Shown here piece by piece: positions 4,738 to 63,161 of a DNA stretch of 64,000 bases. The position numbers were made by a program, and so were the translations under genes. The stretch is from positions 40,247 through 104,246 of the IMG/VR virus record IMGVR_UViG_3300047476_000577; one strand, given 5' to 3'. The number at the start of each line of letters is the position of its first letter. The first letter of the stretch is position 1. The notes below the pieces were generated by a model, which saw nothing but the letters and a program-made list of their open reading frames with translations, searched no databases and was not told the origin of the DNA. Source of the stretch: a virus.

Positions 4738-5663
4738 TTTAGGGACTCTATAAAATCTTTTACATATATTTGAAATACATTATCGTTATAAGGAATAACT
4801 TTTTGCATTTCTTGTTTGGCATTAAAGTTTAATAACTTCAATGTTTCGTAACCGTGGTACTTAGGCCTGGGTTTCAATAAGAAATGTTGCCCGTATACTT
4901 CTTTTTTTATTGCCTGCACACTACGCTTTCCTACTAATTGATTAGTGACTAGTTTAGTTACTAATGGGTCTATAGCATAACTTAACATTATTTCCGGAGT
5001 ATAACTAAAGAATTCACTAATTACTGGCCGTTGATTGATGTGTGCATACTTGGGAACGCTTAAATCGTTGTTTTCTCTAACATAGTAAAACCAACGATTA
5101 TTTCTTTCCTTCGGATTTTTGAGGTATGCGGCATAGTCGAACTTTTGTTCAAAAAATACTTCACCGGTTCCTAATACAGGAATAGCATCGTCGATTTTAT
5201 TCATCAGCCAGATTAATTGAATCTGTGCAATCTGGCTGCTTTGATATTTTATACCAATTGGCAAGTATTCTTTGCTTTTATAAAACTCTACAATGTCAAT
5301 CTCGTGTACTCTATATTGTACATTATAATACTCGCAAAAGTCTATAGCGTATTTGATATCGTGATCGTTGTATCCGTCTTTGAATCTTAAGATATCTGCT
5401 ACAAAAGGTACACCTGCTAGTAAAAAACTTTGTGCCAATACTTCGCTATCGACACCGCCGCTGAAAAATATACTGAATTTTTCATTAGGGTAAGCATCTT
5501 TTATTTTACTAACAACATCTAGGCACTCCGATTTAAAGTCAGCAGGGCGCCTTGTCACTTTATCCCAGTGCATTTTAAAAATATCCGAGTCGTGTGTTCT
5601 ATTAGAAAATGGAACACCATTGTATGTCCAATGAAAATGATTATTTTGTGTTAGTGTTACCAT
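4734..5663 (-). CDS. PP-loop ATP pyrophosphatase (Asn-synthetase-like)
   Basis: FSGGVDSE PP-loop; C-terminal RPKYHGYE. Confidence 0.7.
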   Translation of the reverse strand: MVTLTQNNHFHWTYNGVPFSNRTHDSDIFKMHWDKVTRRPADFKSECLDVVSKIKDAYPNEKFSIFFSGGVDSEVLAQSFLLAGVPFVADILRFKDGYNDHDIKYAIDFCEYYNVQYRVHEIDIVEFYKSKEYLPIGIKYQSSQIAQIQLIWLMNKIDDAIPVLGTGEVFFEQKFDYAAYLKNPKERNNRWFYYVRENNDLSVPKYAHINQRPVISEFFSYTPEIMLSYAIDPLVTKLVTNQLVGKRSVQAIKKEVYGQHFLLKPRPKYHGYETLKLLNFNAKQEMQKVIPYNDNVFQIYVKDFIESLK

Positions 5664-6510
5664 AATTAAATTCTGGGTCTAGCTGGGTATCTATAGACAC
5701 TCGAACGAACCTTCTATCTCCCACGCTATCGGAAAATATTTCTCCCTCGCCTTTGCGGTGCATAGTGGCCCAATTATCGAAAATAATTAAATCTCCTATT
5801 TCCCAGTTGTGTGAGTACTGATATTTATTGCCCAGGTCTTTAACAACATTTTTTAAAATTTCGTTATCTAAATATTTTTTCTCTGTTCCGTGCTGTTCAT
5901 ACCAGGAGCGAATCCACCCGTTGTCCTGACTAACAGCATTTAATCTTAGAAACTTTTCTTTAGTATATGGATGTTCTTCTATAGCAGGTAAATCTTTTAT
6001 ATTAGTTCCTACTCGTTGCCAGCTTTGGTATGTGAAATATCTACGACTGTATTTTTCTTTTTCTTCTTGACTGAGGTCAGAATAAGCTCTTGCCATATTT
6101 GAAACATCAGTGGTCATACCTTTAAATTTAGAAGGGAGATCGATGCAGTATAGCATTCTACTAGGATATCTTGCAAAGCCGGGTTCATTGGCAATATCTA
6201 CGTGCCAAGGAATTCCTGAAAATAATCTTGCGTAGCTTTTATTAGTATAGTCTGTATAAGATCTTCCTTGATTATCAAATCTTGCATCTTCTTTAATTGA
6301 CTTATAATCTTTATACGCCCACGGCTTACCTAGCTTTTCCCCTAGATCTATTATTTTTTTAGGACTAAGGTTGTGCCATCCTTTAAACACTAATACTTTA
6401 TGGGTGAATAGCAGATGTCGTAAATCACTATTATCGACTGCCATTACTTCGTCGTATGATAGGTTTATTTTAATTCCTATAAAATCAGTGAGGGAAGTGT
6501 AGGGTATCAT
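5641..6510 (-). CDS. TauD/TfdA-family 2OG-Fe(II) dioxygenase
   Basis: WHVD, HPYT, W..GDLIIFDNWATMHR motifs. Confidence 0.85.
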   Translation of the reverse strand: MIPYTSLTDFIGIKINLSYDEVMAVDNSDLRHLLFTHKVLVFKGWHNLSPKKIIDLGEKLGKPWAYKDYKSIKEDARFDNQGRSYTDYTNKSYARLFSGIPWHVDIANEPGFARYPSRMLYCIDLPSKFKGMTTDVSNMARAYSDLSQEEKEKYSRRYFTYQSWQRVGTNIKDLPAIEEHPYTKEKFLRLNAVSQDNGWIRSWYEQHGTEKKYLDNEILKNVVKDLGNKYQYSHNWEIGDLIIFDNWATMHRKGEGEIFSDSVGDRRFVRVSIDTQLDPEFNYGNTNTK

Positions 6511-52455: not shown

Positions 52456-52830
52456 TTATCGCACACTTTGCGCTCTTGCTGTAATTACGCCTTCCATATC
52501 ATTCTTTACAATAACGTTTTGATAAGTGTCTACAAAACCACTTGCGTGGTCAACTACTCTGTTATCGCATTCGTGATAGGTTCTAATGCGTTCATTACCT
52601 GCCAAGTAACGCTCAGTGTCTTTGTGGTAAAAATTGTGAACTCTAGACAAGCAAGTGATATAAGCACTGCGCTTATTATCTTCTCTACTACGACTGTTAG
52701 TTCCGTTAGCAGTTATCCCGGTAGGCTCGTGTATGCAACGGCAACAGTTTTGATGTTTGTTGCGATGTTGCCCACCTTTGCCAGTACCTGAAAACCACTC
52801 GTATCTAAACTGATCTTCGGTAATTTTCAT
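52456..52830 (-). CDS. Stand-alone GGQ peptidyl-tRNA hydrolase domain (class I release-factor-like)
   Basis: SGTGKGGQHRNK, HEPTGI, RSREDNK, ERIRTY..RVVDH; no stop-codon recognition domain. Confidence 0.85.
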   Translation of the reverse strand: MKITEDQFRYEWFSGTGKGGQHRNKHQNCCRCIHEPTGITANGTNSRSREDNKRSAYITCLSRVHNFYHKDTERYLAGNERIRTYHECDNRVVDHASGFVDTYQNVIVKNDMEGVITARAQSVR

Positions 52831-53757: not shown

Positions 53758-54891
53758 ATGAATACAGATGACTTAATCAACAGCAAAAAATGTAGCATAC
53801 CTTGGTTGCATACTGAAATAAATTTACAGAACAACAGTGTTATGCCTTGCTGTAAGTACACAAAATCTATCGGTACTCCCGACAACTTTATTCAAGTATG
53901 GAGTAACGACCATTATAAAAAGCTAAGAGCAGATACTGCTCAAGGCAAGTTACACGCAGGTTGTGTTAAGTGCTATGTACCATCTAACGAATTTTCGTAT
54001 AAAGACTTAAAAAATCTTGCATACAAAAATAAATTAGTAGCTGACGTAGATAGCTTTAAATTCCCTCAGGCCTTCTGTATAAGTTTAACAAATACGTGCA
54101 CTCTAGCTTGCAGGATGTGTCATCCTAACTCAAGTTCTAAACTAGCAGAACTATCCAATAAAAGCGCCTTCTTAAAGCCTTTTTATAATCAAAATGCTAT
54201 GCAAAATACCTTTAACTTATCAAAGCTAAAAGGAGCGTTTGTTGATGCAAGACGTATTACTATTACAGGCGGCGAACCTTTAATTGATTCTACTTGCAGT
54301 GACTTAATTGCGTTAGTAGCAACCGAATCTCCACACTTAGAGGAAGTAATATTTTCAAGTAGTCTTGTAACTTACAACAAGAAGTTAATCGAACAACTAC
54401 GACAACTATCTGCCAAAGTAAGAATAAACATAAGCATAGACGGGCCAATTAACGTACACGAATACATACGTGTTGGATTCGATTGGCAACGTATGCTAGA
54501 AAACATACACAGTCTTAAAGACTTTGTAGAGTTTGGAATCAACTCTACTGTTAGTTTACTAAACGTAGGTTATATTCCAGAACTGCTAGATGCTATAAAG
54601 AATATTAGCAACGAGACTGGAATAACACTAAAGTATCTAATGACTAGCCCTGTGTTAGAAAAACATCTGCACGTAGGCAATTTACCGACACACATCAAAC
54701 AACAATATTTGAAAAAGCTAGAGCTAGCAAGTCCTAGTATACCCGGTAGCGATAAACTAATTGCCACGGCTAAGAATTTACTAGCACTTGAAAGAAACGA
54801 GTTAGAATTGACTAAACAATTTTTAGCCGAATTCGATAGTATTACAAATACAGATTACAGGCTTGTGTATCCAGAATTTGCAAACTTGTAA
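53758..54891 (+). CDS. Radical SAM protein with N-terminal SPASM/Twitch-like domain
   Basis: CSIPW..PCC..CVKC, then CTLACRMC, TGGEP, SIDG. Confidence 0.88.
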   Translation: MNTDDLINSKKCSIPWLHTEINLQNNSVMPCCKYTKSIGTPDNFIQVWSNDHYKKLRADTAQGKLHAGCVKCYVPSNEFSYKDLKNLAYKNKLVADVDSFKFPQAFCISLTNTCTLACRMCHPNSSSKLAELSNKSAFLKPFYNQNAMQNTFNLSKLKGAFVDARRITITGGEPLIDSTCSDLIALVATESPHLEEVIFSSSLVTYNKKLIEQLRQLSAKVRINISIDGPINVHEYIRVGFDWQRMLENIHSLKDFVEFGINSTVSLLNVGYIPELLDAIKNISNETGITLKYLMTSPVLEKHLHVGNLPTHIKQQYLKKLELASPSIPGSDKLIATAKNLLALERNELELTKQFLAEFDSITNTDYRLVYPEFANL

Positions 54892-54975: not shown

Positions 54976-55058
54976 AACAGGATAGTTGGTGCCATTTTTA
55001 TTTTAGTCTGACAGCGAACAGACAGCCATTATGTAGTAATTGCTGAACCTATCCTAAA
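54976..55058 (-). ncRNA. CAGCA-handle RNA 4
   Basis: GGATAG-GTTCAGCAA ... CTATCC-TG; cargo hairpin GTCTG/CAGAC. Confidence 0.75.
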
Positions 55059-56356: not shown

Positions 56357-56446
56357 TGGCGGAGCGTTAGGGAGTCGAACCCTATCAGCTGCTTTCACAA
56401 CTGTACGGATTAGCAATCCGCTGCCTTACCGTCCGGCCCACGCTCC
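56357..56446 (-). tRNA. tRNA-Ser(GCU)
   Basis: Long variable arm, CCA. Confidence 0.92.
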
Positions 56447-56468
56447 TTGCTAATACTTTATTTATGTT

Positions 56469-56553
56469 TGGTGCTCCGACCCGGACTCGAACCGGGATGG
56501 CTTTCGCCGACAGATTTTAAGTCTGTTGTGTCTACCTATTCCACCATCGGAGC
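56469..56553 (-). tRNA. tRNA-Leu(UAA)
   Basis: Long variable arm, CCA. Confidence 0.93.
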
Positions 56554-56567
56554 GTAAACTTATTTAC

Positions 56568-56690
56568 AACTGGTTCGCATTTTTATCCTATCCATTAGAC
56601 GACAGTGGTGACCAACTCCACCGCTGGGATTCGAACCCAGATCTTCTTTGTTCAAAAAAGTTAAAATATAAATTGCTGAAACGAACCGAG
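56568..56690 (-). ncRNA. CAGCA-handle RNA 5: permuted tRNA (YrlA-like)
   Basis: GGTTCG/CGAACC handle; T-arm CTGGG-TTCGAAT-CCCAG, looped acceptor CGGTGG/CCACTG, D-arm. Confidence 0.8.
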
Positions 56691-56699
56691 GTCAAAAAC

Positions 56700-56760
56700 A
56701 ACAGGATGCTTATTTTTCAATTAACAGTTGAATTATTAAATTTGCTGAACGCATCCTAAA
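56700..56760 (-). ncRNA. CAGCA-handle RNA 6 with Asn-GUU anticodon stem-loop
   Basis: GGATGC/GCATCC handle; cargo TTCAA-CTGTTAA-TTGAA. Confidence 0.8.
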
Positions 56761-56763
56761 ACT

Positions 56764-56848
56764 TGGTGGAGCCGGTTGGACTTGAACCAACAATGCCAGG
56801 GGCGGCTGATTTACAGTCAGCTGGGGTTACCAATTTTCCTACAACTCC
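56764..56848 (-). tRNA. tRNA-Tyr(GUA)
   Basis: Cloverleaf with variable arm, CCA. Confidence 0.92.
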
Positions 56849-56855
56849 AAAACGT

Positions 56856-56997
56856 TGGTGTAGCGTTTGCGAATCGAACGCAAACAATCGCGGATTTCTC
56901 GCCAGGTAACGTTACCTCCTGGCACCGTGCGTTATTCTGAAGTAATTACTCTTCTCATTACACACGCCAACAACCGTGTAAGTCCATTACACGCCAC
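56856..56997 (-). ncRNA. 142-nt tRNA-like RNA with G3-U70 acceptor and CCA
   Basis: Acceptor GTGGCGT/ACGCTAC-A-CCA, T-arm TTGCG-TTCGATT-CGCAA; no canonical D or anticodon arm. Confidence 0.7.
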
Positions 56998-57938: not shown

Positions 57939-58132
57939 CCACATTACAGTGCATTTTAGGCTGACGCTTGTTAAACACTAGCCGGGATTCGAACCCGTAC
58001 TTTCCGCCACAAGGCGGCTGGTCTTCCGTTAACCTACTAGGACTCCTTAGCGGTGCGCTCGGCAAAGCGGTGCGCTGAGGGACAAGATACAGACCTTCTG
58101 ACGATTGCCGTCATCAGCCTAAAATGCACTGC

Positions 58133-58204: not shown

Positions 58205-58636
58205 TCAGCAAAGCAATTCTTTAACAATTCTAGATGCTATAGCACCATCGTAAGTACCTTCGTACTTTTGTTTAAATTCTTTAAGCACTGCACCCATAGC
58301 TTTAGGGCCCGATACACCTAGTGTACTTACTAGGTCACTAGCAGCTACTCGGATGTCTTGTTCTGACATCTGTGCTGGTACAAAAGTCACGAGAACAGAG
58401 TTCTCCATCTGTAGTGTAGCTATGACTCCTGCGTCGGTTACTCTACTCAAAGTTTCTTCGTTGTTCTTGATGAACTTCTTAACTACAGCGATTGCTTCTG
58501 CATCTGTAGTGTCGCGATTCGCATTTTTACCTACCATTGCGACTTCTGATAAAAGAGTCACAAGTAGGCTAGCACTAGGGGCTTTGGCTTTCCTAGCTTC
58601 AACGCTTGCAGATTTAATAGTTTCTAAAATTGACAT
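58205..58636 (-). CDS. GatB/YqeY domain protein
   Basis: ARKAK, VVKKFIK, FVPAQMSEQDI, MGAVLK..K..G.YDG. Confidence 0.85.
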   Translation of the reverse strand: MSILETIKSASVEARKAKAPSASLLVTLLSEVAMVGKNANRDTTDAEAIAVVKKFIKNNEETLSRVTDAGVIATLQMENSVLVTFVPAQMSEQDIRVAASDLVSTLGVSGPKAMGAVLKEFKQKYEGTYDGAIASRIVKELLC

Positions 58637-58751: not shown

Positions 58752-58858
58752 AACAGGATGTTGTGTCTAAGCCGGGACTCGAACCCACGACACACCCCCA
58801 GCGGGCCGGCCTCCAGAAGGTTTGGTTGGAGAAAAATTGTTGCTGTAATCATCCTAAA
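58752..58858 (-). ncRNA. CAGCA-handle RNA 7 with T-arm cargo
   Basis: GGATG-ATTACAGCAA ... CATCC-TG; cargo GGG-TTCGAGT-CCC inside GTGTC/GACAC. Confidence 0.75.
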
Positions 58859-59788: not shown

Positions 59789-59905
59789 TGGAGCCGCCGG
59801 AGGGACTCGAACCCCCATCACTTCCTTCGAATGGAAAAATGAATTGCTGCACGTATCCTTAACAGGATCACCTTTTAAGTGTCCTAACCATTAGACGACA
59901 GCGGC
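59789..59905 (-). ncRNA. CAGCA-handle RNA 8: CCA-ended tRNA body with the handle in place of the anticodon arm
   Basis: GCCGCTG/CGGCGGC-T-CCA, D- and T-arms; internal GTGATCCTG-TTA-AGGATACGTGCAGCAA. Confidence 0.8.
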
Positions 59906-62476: not shown

Positions 62477-62543
62477 AACAGGATGCTTTTTTACGGGTTT
62501 GATTAAAAGTCAAATGTATAAAGTTTGCTGAACGCATCCTAAA
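62477..62543 (-). ncRNA. CAGCA-handle RNA 9 with Lys-UUU anticodon stem-loop
   Basis: GGATGC/GCATCC handle; cargo TTTGA-CTTTTAA-TCAAA. Confidence 0.8.
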
Positions 62544-63069: not shown

Positions 63070-63161
63070 TGGCGGGGAGATAGTAGAATCGAACTCTAAG
63101 CTGCTCATCACAACTCCATCGGTTTTCAAGACCGTGCCAGACCCAGTCTGGATAACTCCCC
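63070..63161 (-). tRNA. tRNA-Ser(UGA)
   Basis: Long variable arm, G73, CCA. Confidence 0.88.

What the first reader, a model, noticed from the sequence alone, without database searches (positions are those of the whole stretch)
56700..56760. Handle RNA displaying a bare tRNA-Asn anticodon stem-loop
Seen: the cargo is a 5-bp stem with the 7-nt loop CUGUUAA, identical to the loop of both phage tRNA-Asn genes; the handle is identical to RNA 9. Known: GUN/QUN anticodons are cut by colicin E5-type nucleases and modified by Tgt. Inference: a decoy or sensor for anticodon nucleases.
Basis: partly seen in the sequence, partly recalled or inferred. Interest (0 to 1): 0.8.

Follow-up and report, generated by a model that had tools for sequence, protein, structure and literature searches.

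The report
Anticodon-loop mimic on Ro60-like partner RNA
A 55-base RNA gene in a giant freshwater phage's tRNA cluster shows a copy of the asparagine tRNA anticodon loop on a conserved "handle" that travels with a Ro60-like phage protein, so it is probably that protein's partner RNA, and its proposed role as bait for tRNA-cutting defence enzymes is untested.

Summary
On the minus strand at 56704-56756, a 6-bp helix (8 bp with its conserved flanks) is followed by GUUCAGCAA. It encloses a 5-bp stem with the loop CUGUUAA, which is identical to the loop of both phage tRNA-Asn genes. The handle matches the element at 62477-62543.

It is one of at least nine such elements in this tRNA island. The family is large and is absent from Rfam and from the papers I searched. 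This scan has already met the family, including anticodon-loop cargos, on many other genomes.

The handle travels with a DUF2828/DUF7788 gene whose model folds like Ro60. Of 79 loci fetched by that protein alone, 77 carry the handle on the gene's strand. The handle also occurs in Felix O1-like, Listeria A511 and mycobacteriophage LeBron genomes.

Anticodon-arm geometry recurs: 69 of 145 distinct short cargos have a 5-bp stem and 7-nt loop, against 1% of shuffles. U33, U36, A37, A38 and U39 are mostly kept, while positions 34-35 change between orthologues. Lys, Thr and Asn loops make up 39 of 71, and these are the published targets of PARIS AriB.

Caveats: the stem is thermodynamically weak, this copy's lowest-energy fold is a different hairpin, and binding, processing and any decoy role are untested.

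The parts
56700..56760 (-). The whole element: handle plus anticodon-arm-like cargo, with conserved flanks UUUA and UGUU
   Evidence: It aligns with 57 homologues in A2.
56751..56756 (-). 5' strand of the terminal helix (GGAUGC). With A56757 and U56758 it extends to 8 bp
   Evidence: four of six pairs change on both sides across homologues, and the flanking A-U and U-G pairs are conserved.
56742..56750 (-). Conserved single-stranded motif GUUCAGCAA (family core CAGCAA)
   Evidence: CAGCA is invariant in A2. The same core occurs in SUSP1, A511 and LeBron.
56716..56732 (-). Anticodon-arm-like hairpin: UUCAA, loop CUGUUAA (56721-56727), UUGAA
   Evidence: Covariation, geometry statistics. It is not the lowest-energy fold of this copy.
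56710..56715 (-). A-rich 3' side of the internal loop (AAAUAA)
   Evidence: A-rich in all homologues.
56704..56709 (-). 3' strand of the terminal helix (GCAUCC), followed by the conserved UGUU at 56700-56703
62477..62543 (-). Sibling element with an identical handle. Its cargo has the loop CUUUUAA (Lys UUU-like) on stem UUUGA/UCAAA
56572..56687 (-). Sibling 17 nt downstream: helix GGUUCG/CGAACC, UUUCAGCAA, and a circularly permuted tRNA-like cargo (T arm, closed acceptor stem, D arm)
54980..55054 (-). Sibling with helix GGAUAG/CUAUCC and a different hairpin cargo
49298..49424 (-). Sibling with helix GGAUCA/UGAUCC and a permuted tRNA-like cargo
58752..58854 (-). Sibling with helix GGAUG/CAUCC, AUUACAGCAA, and a cargo with a T-arm-like hairpin
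48733..48984 (-). Sibling with a 231-nt cargo, just upstream of the DUF2828 gene
48677..48727 (-). Short sibling (GAAUCG/CGAUUC, AUACAGCAA) in the 5' leader of the DUF2828 gene. It ends 18 nt before the likely start codon at 48659
47271..48689 (-). DUF2828 + DUF7788 gene (Ro60-like ring plus vWA domain with an invariant MIDAS motif), the presumed protein partner. The likely true start is 48659
   Evidence: Pfam, PHROG, alignment, model, fold search.

Best explanation
The element is a small non-coding RNA gene of about 55-60 nt. It is probably released from the polycistronic tRNA-island transcript by the host's tRNA-processing enzymes.

Its handle consists of a terminal helix, single-stranded CAGCAA, an A-rich opposite strand and a UGU tail. 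The handle is the binding module for the phage's Ro60-like DUF2828 protein, so the RNA would act like a Y RNA.

Its variable module copies the geometry of a tRNA anticodon arm and presents an Asn (GUU) loop. By analogy with Y RNAs, which tether Ro60 to other proteins, this module would engage a protein that reads anticodon loops.

The most likely class of such proteins is host tRNA-cutting defence nucleases, which the particle would soak up or hold. I put roughly half of this explanation's weight on that use.

Shown here: the RNA family, its covarying structure, its linkage to the gene, the protein's Ro60-like fold, the conserved anticodon-arm geometry and the displayed repertoire. Inferred: transcription as a discrete RNA, protein binding, and any decoy action.
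For: Family:
- 119 of 134 motif matches in viral contigs have the exact complementary 3' strand.
- The outer helix and the inner stem both covary.

Linkage to the gene:
- 42 of 119 loci fetched by the RNA motif alone encode a DUF2828 homologue.
- In 79 loci fetched by the protein alone, there are 167 elements on the gene's strand against 7 on the other. 77 of 79 loci have at least one, and 71 of 79 have one within 500 nt upstream.
- No other protein neighbour is conserved.
- The same handle sits beside the gene in SUSP1, A511 and LeBron at 34-39% protein identity.

Protein:
- The top 13 fold matches are all Ro60/TROVE structures over the full length.
- The DxSxS, T and D residues of the MIDAS site are invariant.

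Mimicry:
- 69 of 145 distinct short cargos have a 5-bp stem and 7-nt loop, against 1.0% of shuffles.
- In 82 seven-nt loops, U33 is kept in 76 and a purine at 37 in 72.
- In 71 stricter cargos, none has A34 or a stop anticodon, and A31-U39 is kept in 57.
- tRNA-like cargos occur in siblings, and the LeBron one matches Rfam YrlA at 39.8 bits.

Defence context:
- Lys UUU, Thr UGU and Asn GUU make up 39 of 71 cargos. They are AriB's targets, and AriB reads U36-A-A-U (PMC12409363).
- The homologous Ro60-like gp130 of phage Bas63 counters the Ppl defence system (preprint 10.1101/2024.10.10.617714).

RNA libraries: the region is present at about 99% identity in contigs of four freshwater metatranscriptome runs from two studies.
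Against: - No binding, processing or cleavage data exist. The RNA-library contigs cannot show transcription or RNA ends.
- The anticodon-like stem is almost all A-U. It is not the lowest-energy fold of this copy, it appears in the lowest-energy fold of only 20 of 58 homologues, and RNAalifold does not predict it.
- The same stem carries different anticodons, and it differs from the stems of the phages' own tRNAs. It therefore mimics no specific tRNA beyond the loop.
- AriB also needs D-loop contacts (PMC12409363), and P2 OLD needs a CNG motif in the stem (PMC12445682). Those two known nucleases would probably not accept a bare A-U arm.
- About half of the short cargos are not anticodon-like.
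- The motif differs from the GNCGAA/CGAA Ro60-binding motif of known Y RNAs (PMC4201824, PMC12135203).
- Pfam's TROVE model does not match in this record.
Confidence: 0.5

Rival explanations
1. It is a partner RNA of the Ro60-like protein, but the small hairpin is only a structural spacer or a stable U-turn loop. Its likeness to an anticodon loop comes from A/U-rich composition and is read by nothing.
For: Many cargos in the family are not anticodon-like. The stem is weak and alternative folds compete with it. Loops are U-rich on the 5' side and A-rich on the 3' side in general.
Against: The exact 5-bp and 7-nt geometry is about 50-fold above shuffles, and with U33 and R37 several hundred-fold. 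A34 never occurs although A makes up 30% of loop letters, and no stop anticodons occur. U36-A37-A38-U39 is kept while positions 34-35 vary. Other family members carry whole tRNA bodies.
Confidence: 0.2
2. It is a partner RNA whose anticodon-arm mimic recruits or titrates host translation enzymes rather than defence nucleases. Candidates are anticodon-reading aminoacyl-tRNA synthetases (Lys, Asn, Thr, Arg, Ile, Met, Tyr), t6A37 or other loop-modifying enzymes, or the ribosomal decoding site. The purpose would be to retune translation or tRNA maturation during infection.
For: 58 of 71 displayed anticodons end in U36 followed by A37. From established knowledge, this is the signature of tRNAs that decode ANN codons and carry t6A. 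Most displayed identities belong to synthetases that read the anticodon. The island also holds translation-related genes: an RF-1 domain protein, a YqeY-like protein and a radical SAM enzyme. E. coli ThrRS is known to bind anticodon-arm mimics in its own mRNA (established knowledge).
Against: There is no direct evidence. The only phenotype reported for a homologous protein is counter-defence (preprint 10.1101/2024.10.10.617714). The phages already carry near-complete tRNA sets.
Confidence: 0.15
3. It is a cis-acting processing or insulating element of the tRNA operon, for example a landing site for RNase E or RNase P or a spacer that aids folding, with no dedicated protein partner.
For: Each copy begins 2-5 nt after the CCA end of a tRNA and ends shortly before the next gene.
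Against: The element follows the DUF2828 gene even where no tRNA is adjacent, including in the gene's own leader. Most tRNA junctions in the island have no such element. Strict conservation of CAGCAA and a covarying helix point to specific recognition.
Confidence: 0.08
4. It is a decayed remnant of a tRNA-Asn gene, kept by chance.
For: The loop is identical to that of the phage tRNA-Asn genes.
Against: ARAGORN and Rfam find no tRNA match here. The stem is unrelated to the tRNA-Asn stems. The element is conserved with compensating changes in many phages.
Confidence: 0.03

Closest known systems
Ro60 (Rsr/TROVE) with Y RNAs: bacterial and phage YrlA/YrlB (Rfam RF02553; PMC4201824) and Thermus phage phiLo Yrl1/Yrl2 (PMC12135203)
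   Same: Small RNAs are encoded beside a ring-plus-vWA protein gene. The 5' and 3' ends pair in a terminal helix that carries a conserved motif. A variable second module mimics tRNA. Siblings of this element carry a permuted tRNA body as YrlA does, and the LeBron one matches the YrlA model at 39.8 bits.
   Different: The protein is DUF2828/DUF7788, not a Pfam TROVE match. The motif is CAGCAA, not GNCGAA or CGAA. This element has no D or T arm and shows only an anticodon arm, the one tRNA part that YrlA lacks. There are many copies per genome with interchangeable cargos, and no YrlA match here at E up to 10.
Dictyostelium Class I RNAs (Rfam RF01414; PMC7919456)
   Same: Both are 42-65 nt long. 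Both have a 6-bp terminal helix whose structure, not sequence, is kept, an adjacent motif ending in CAGCAA, a variable interior, an A-rich stretch before the 3' strand, an AG start and a CUGU end. RF01414 is the best non-tRNA Rfam match for four phage elements, at 20.9-28.3 bits.
   Different: The scores are below the gathering score of 41.5. The Class I RNAs are eukaryotic genes with their own upstream promoter element, their only known direct binder is an RRM protein, and no anticodon-like cargo is described. Homology is not shown and convergence or chance is possible.
Phage tRNAs that replace host tRNAs cut by defence nucleases (T5 tRNA-Lys/Thr/Asn against PARIS, PMC12409363; phage tRNA-Thr against P2 OLD, PMC12445682)
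   Same: Same genomic setting (a phage tRNA island) and the same anticodon identities (Lys UUU, Thr UGU, Asn GUU).
   Different: Those are complete, chargeable tRNAs that act by substitution. This RNA has no acceptor end, D arm or T arm and could act only by binding or being cut.
Anticodon-arm mimics in mRNA leaders (E. coli thrS operator; established knowledge)
   Same: A hairpin that copies the anticodon arm is read by a tRNA-binding protein.
   Different: That mimic is a cis-regulatory part of an mRNA and is specific for one synthetase. This one is a free-standing, multi-copy RNA with a swappable loop.

Membership tests
Y RNA / YrlA (RF02553) | Encoded close to a Ro60 (TROVE + vWA) gene | tested here: met
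   A Ro60-fold DUF2828 gene lies at 47271-48689 in the same island. At family level, 77 of 79 loci carry the handle. The protein is Ro60-like by fold only; Pfam TROVE gives no match.
Y RNA / YrlA (RF02553) | Terminal helix with the GNCGAA (CGAA) Ro60-binding motif | tested here: not met
   The helix is present, but the motif is GUUCAGCAA. The motif definition comes from PMC4201824 and PMC12135203.
Y RNA / YrlA (RF02553) | tRNA-like domain with T and D arms and a closed acceptor stem | tested here: not met
   This element has only a 17-nt hairpin. Siblings at 49298-49424 and 56572-56687 do have such a domain.
Y RNA / YrlA (RF02553) | Match to the Rfam model at the gathering score (69 bits) | tested here: not met
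   There is no YrlA match at E up to 10 over 56540-56780.
Y RNA / YrlA (RF02553) | Physical association with the Ro60-type protein | not testable with these tools
   This needs immunoprecipitation or gel-shift experiments.
Dictyostelium Class I RNA (RF01414) | 6-bp terminal helix, adjacent 11-nt motif, CUGU end and 42-65 nt length | tested here: met
   Helix, length (53-61 nt) and CUGU end are all present. The motif matches in its UU and CAGCAA parts (alignment; features from PMC7919456).
Dictyostelium Class I RNA (RF01414) | Rfam gathering score of 41.5 bits | tested here: not met
   The score is 28.3 bits, with E = 0.0014 for a 241-base search. That is above the 25-bit working cut-off used in PMC7919456.
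Dictyostelium Class I RNA (RF01414) | Dictyostelid gene with an upstream DUSE promoter element | tested here: not met
   The element lies inside a phage tRNA operon, 3-4 nt after a tRNA's CCA end.
tRNA anticodon arm (as a mimic) | 5-bp stem, 7-nt loop, pyrimidine 32, U33 and purine 37 | tested here: met
   Present in this sequence and kept in homologues.
tRNA anticodon arm (as a mimic) | The hairpin is the fold the RNA actually adopts | tested here: inconclusive
   Covariation supports it. The energy model prefers another hairpin in this copy by 3.3 kcal/mol, and RNAalifold omits it.
tRNA gene or pseudogene | Cloverleaf detected by ARAGORN or the Rfam tRNA model | tested here: not met
   No tRNA call overlaps 56700-56760.
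Anticodon-nuclease decoy (functional class, no described family) | Bound or cleaved by an anticodon nuclease and protects tRNA | not testable with these tools
   Only circumstantial evidence exists: the anticodon repertoire and the U36-A-A-U39 context (PMC12409363).

The most novel reading that the evidence does not exclude
The anticodon-displaying handle RNAs are programmable RNA baits. Held on the Ro60-like ring, they would capture or absorb defence nucleases that read anticodon loops (PARIS AriB, PrrC/RloC, colicin-type, or the ATPase-PHP protein Ppl). Specificity would be reset by one or two base changes at loop positions 34-35. That would make them an RNA-based counter-defence working alongside the phage's replacement tRNAs.
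Probability: 0.25. Interest if true: 0.9.

Novelty: new variant of a known kind. Interest (0 to 1): 0.78.

Why it matters
- DUF2828 proteins occur in at least 710 sequenced phage genomes, including model phages of E. coli, Salmonella, Listeria, Staphylococcus and Mycobacterium, and have no assigned RNA partner. These RNAs would fill that gap. They would also explain the unannotated spacers in many phage tRNA clusters.
- If the anticodon-loop cargos are read by tRNA-directed enzymes, they would be the first RNA mimics of the anticodon arm used by a virus. They would add an RNA-bait layer to the contest over tRNA cleavage between phages and bacterial immunity.
- The handle's likeness to Dictyostelium Class I RNAs gives a testable lead for that unexplained RNA class.

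Tried and rejected
- **Rfam.** At gathering thresholds Rfam finds only tRNAs in the window. The A511 copies did not reach E = 1 against RF01414 in a 12.9-kb search.
- **Protein families.** Pfam TROVE, RtcB and RNA_ligase searches of the window's own record found nothing, but that record is only 29% complete. Four relatives at 94-100% completeness also lack RtcB and Rnl2-type ligase, so a phage-encoded repair ligase is not part of the conserved module here. Rnl1 was not searched.
- **Chance matches.** The first collection scan could have been mostly chance for a 15-base pattern, by my own rough estimate. I tested this through the 3' complement (119 of 134).
- **Detector.** A loose handle detector gave too many false hits (332 against 141 on the opposite strand). 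I replaced it with a strict one (167 against 7).
- **RNA reads.** Laying RNA-library runs gave only contigs, so there is no information on starts, ends, strand or expression level.
- **Folding.** Single-sequence and consensus folding do not recover the anticodon-like hairpin.
- **Neighbours and co-occurrence.** No conserved protein neighbour other than DUF2828 was found. Co-occurrence of a cargo's anticodon with a same-anticodon tRNA gene (37 of 71) tells nothing, because these phages carry nearly full tRNA sets.
- **Not done.** I did not search for a DUF2828 homologue in dictyostelids, because the tools return no taxonomy. An earlier scan note claims one exists.

Full report
**Setting.** The window is the last 64 kb of a 104-kb viral contig that CheckV rates 29% complete. 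Complete relatives are 345-364 kb. The sequence recurs in freshwater metagenomes. From 63494 down to 49063 the minus strand carries 42 tRNA genes. The finding lies between tRNA-Tyr (56764-56848) and tRNA-Leu (56469-56553).

**Observation.** On the minus strand the element reads as follows:
- flank UUUA;
- helix strand GGAUGC (56756-56751);
- GUUCAGCAA;
- a 9-nt A/U linker;
- UUCAA, loop CUGUUAA (56727-56721), UUGAA;
- AAAUAA;
- helix strand GCAUCC (56709-56704);
- tail UGUU.

The flanks extend the helix to 8 bp. Both phage tRNA-Asn genes have the same loop on different stems. The handle is identical to that of the element at 62477-62543, whose cargo has a Lys-type loop, CUUUUAA.

**A family, not a single hairpin.** The window holds at least nine elements of the same build. 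They lie at 48677-48727, 48733-48984, 49298-49424, 54980-55054, 56572-56687, 56704-56756, 58752-58854 and 62481-62539. A ninth has the handle set into the anticodon position of a tRNA-like gene at 59792-59905.

A scan of viral contigs with a 15-base handle pattern gave 134 matches. Of these, 119 have the exactly complementary 3' strand downstream, nearly always followed by UGUU, and the two free helix positions take ten or more values.

Cargos range from 23 to about 230 nt and fall into these kinds:
- small hairpins;
- circularly permuted tRNA bodies;
- unpermuted tRNA bodies in which the handle replaces the acceptor stem;
- larger conserved folds.

**The protein partner.** I tested it:
- Pfam gives DUF2828 plus DUF7788.
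- PHROGs gives 'RNA-binding protein'.
- An AlphaFold model built on 30 homologues (pLDDT 76) has Ro60/TROVE structures as its 13 best fold matches over the full length.
- The MIDAS residues are invariant.

Linkage between RNA and gene is strong in both directions. Of 119 loci fetched by the RNA motif, 42 encode the protein. In 79 loci fetched by the protein alone, a strict detector finds 167 elements on the gene's strand against 7 on the other. 77 loci have at least one, and 71 have one within 500 nt upstream. No other protein neighbour is conserved.

The same handle sits beside the gene in distant, cultured phages:
- E. coli phage SUSP1, a Felix O1 relative, has four copies in the tRNA island just after the gene.
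- Listeria phage A511 has three copies in the 357-nt gap before the gene, with an RtcB ligase 1.3 kb downstream.
- Mycobacteriophage LeBron has three copies after the gene. One has an anticodon-like loop, and one has a tRNA-like cargo that matches Rfam YrlA at 39.8 bits.

A complete 364-kb relative shows the same layout as the window: a tRNA island with interspersed handle RNAs, ending in the DUF2828 gene.

**Prior literature.** Rfam 15 has no family for the handle. The only related remark I found is a preprint stating that Bas63 gp130 is Ro60-like, sits before the tRNAs, counters the Ppl defence system, and might bind some 'tRNAs' as Y RNAs (10.1101/2024.10.10.617714). Known Y RNAs use a GNCGAA or CGAA motif (PMC4201824, PMC12135203), not CAGCAA.

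**Is the cargo really anticodon-like?** The counts below come from two element sets, built with slightly different detectors.
- Of 145 distinct short cargos (set 1), 82 fold to a 7-nt loop, 69 to a 5-bp stem plus 7-nt loop, and 60 also have U33 and a purine at 37. Shuffles give 4.7%, 1.0% and 0.07%.
- In 71 distinct anticodon-like cargos from all loci (set 2), position 33 is U in 68, position 36 is U in 58, position 37 is A in 61 and position 38 is A in 56. The closing pair is A31-U39 in 57. A34 never occurs and no stop anticodon occurs.
- The displayed triplets in set 2 are UUU 20, UGU 12, UCU 8, GUU 7, UAU 4, GUA 4, then GGA, CAU, GAU, UGA and others.
- In a 58-sequence alignment, all five stem pairs show changes on both sides and 97% of cells pair. 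With the 3' partner slid by one to three columns, only 30-48% pair.
- Orthologues of this very element, with the same handle, stem and 3' strand, carry UUU, UGU, GUU, GAU or UAU. Variation is concentrated at positions 34-35 inside a fixed frame.

**Cautions.** The stem is nearly all A-U.
- In this copy the energy model prefers a different 6-bp hairpin by 3.3 kcal/mol.
- Only 20 of 58 homologues show the anticodon-like hairpin in their lowest-energy fold, and they share no common alternative.
- RNAalifold predicts only the outer helix.

The fold rests on covariation and may need a protein or loop stacking to form. My selection of sequences by fold also favours that structure.

**Mechanism.** The conserved unit is the handle plus the Ro60-like gene, so a Y-RNA-like particle is the best-supported frame. 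In Y RNAs the second module tethers Ro60 to other proteins (PMC4201824). Here that module is a tRNA part, so the target should be a tRNA-binding protein. For this element, the target should be one that reads the anticodon loop.

Several points favour defence nucleases as that target:
- Phage tRNA islands counter tRNA cleavage.
- Lys UUU, Thr UGU and Asn GUU, which are 39 of the 71 cargos, are the AriB targets. AriB reads U36-A-A-U and needs U39 (PMC12409363).
- A homologous protein counters a defence system (the Bas63 preprint).

Several points weigh against it:
- AriB also needs the D loop, and OLD needs a CNG stem motif (PMC12445682).
- The stems match no real tRNA.
- Half of the short cargos are not anticodon-like.
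- Nothing has been tested at the bench.

Recruitment of synthetases or loop-modifying enzymes is a fair rival, because 58 of 71 loops have the U36-A37 signature of tRNAs that decode ANN codons. A repair platform built around a phage ligase is unlikely in this lineage, since complete relatives encode no RtcB or Rnl2.

**Expression.** The region, including 56412-56849, stands at about 99% identity in contigs of four metatranscriptome runs from two studies. Contigs cannot show transcription, strand or ends.

**Resemblance to Dictyostelium Class I RNAs.** RF01414 is the best non-tRNA Rfam match for this element (28.3 bits), for two siblings (20.9 and 21.5 bits) and for a SUSP1 copy (26.9 bits). 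The published features match point for point: a 6-bp helix, an adjacent motif ending in CAGCAA, a variable core, an AG start and a CUGU end (PMC7919456). All scores are below the gathering score, and I could not test for homology.

**Relation to the scan.** This scan has reported the same handle/DUF2828 pairing on many other genomes, including Lys and Tyr anticodon-loop cargos. My conclusions rest on the tests above, not on those notes.

**Verdict.** The element is a member of a widespread phage RNA family that I found neither in Rfam nor in the papers searched. It is best read as a Y-RNA-like partner of a Ro60-like protein whose cargo mimics an anticodon arm. The decoy idea is plausible but unproven.

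Noticed in passing
window 59792-59905 (minus strand): A tRNA-like gene (Rfam tRNA 41.9 bits over 114 nt, ending in CCA) has the handle inserted in place of the anticodon arm, in circularly permuted order. The 3' strand plus UGUU comes first, then AA, then the 5' strand plus GUGCAGCAA, followed by a small hairpin with the 7-nt loop AUUCGAA. This suggests the handle is recognised without free ends.
   Followed up: partly
window 56850-56997: Contigs of all four metatranscriptome runs join 56849 directly to 56998. They skip 148 nt that lie just 5' of tRNA-Tyr on the minus strand, and are otherwise near-identical to the window. This could be a strain variant lacking an insert, or an excised RNA. 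No DNA run was laid to decide.
   Followed up: no
window 48677-48727 (minus strand): A short handle element sits in the leader of the DUF2828 gene. Its 3' strand ends at the purine-rich ribosome-binding stretch, 18 nt before the likely start codon at 48659. Vibrio phage 6E35-1b has a handle across its gene start. The protein may regulate its own translation.
   Followed up: partly
window 52456-52830, 58205-58636, 53758-54891, 44209-44988: The tRNA island and its edge also encode an RF-1 domain (ArfB-like) protein, a YqeY-like protein, a radical SAM enzyme (plus strand) and a DNA/RNA non-specific endonuclease.
   Followed up: no
L200 (Listeria phage A511, NC_009811) 2143-2501 and 5351-6500: Three handle RNAs fill the gap upstream of the DUF2828 gene gp178. 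A 'tRNA splicing ligase' (RtcB) lies 1.3 kb downstream. This echoes the bacterial rsr-yrlA-rtcB operon.
   Followed up: partly
window 63074-63161 (minus strand): Rfam matches the tRNA-Sec model exactly at its gathering score (47.5 against 47 bits). ARAGORN makes no call here, so this may be a long-arm tRNA such as Ser rather than selenocysteine tRNA.
   Followed up: no
window 57973-58044 (minus strand): ARAGORN calls a tRNA with an irregular two-base anticodon, and Rfam's tRNA model scores it at only 33.8 bits. It is an odd or degenerate tRNA-like gene.
   Followed up: no
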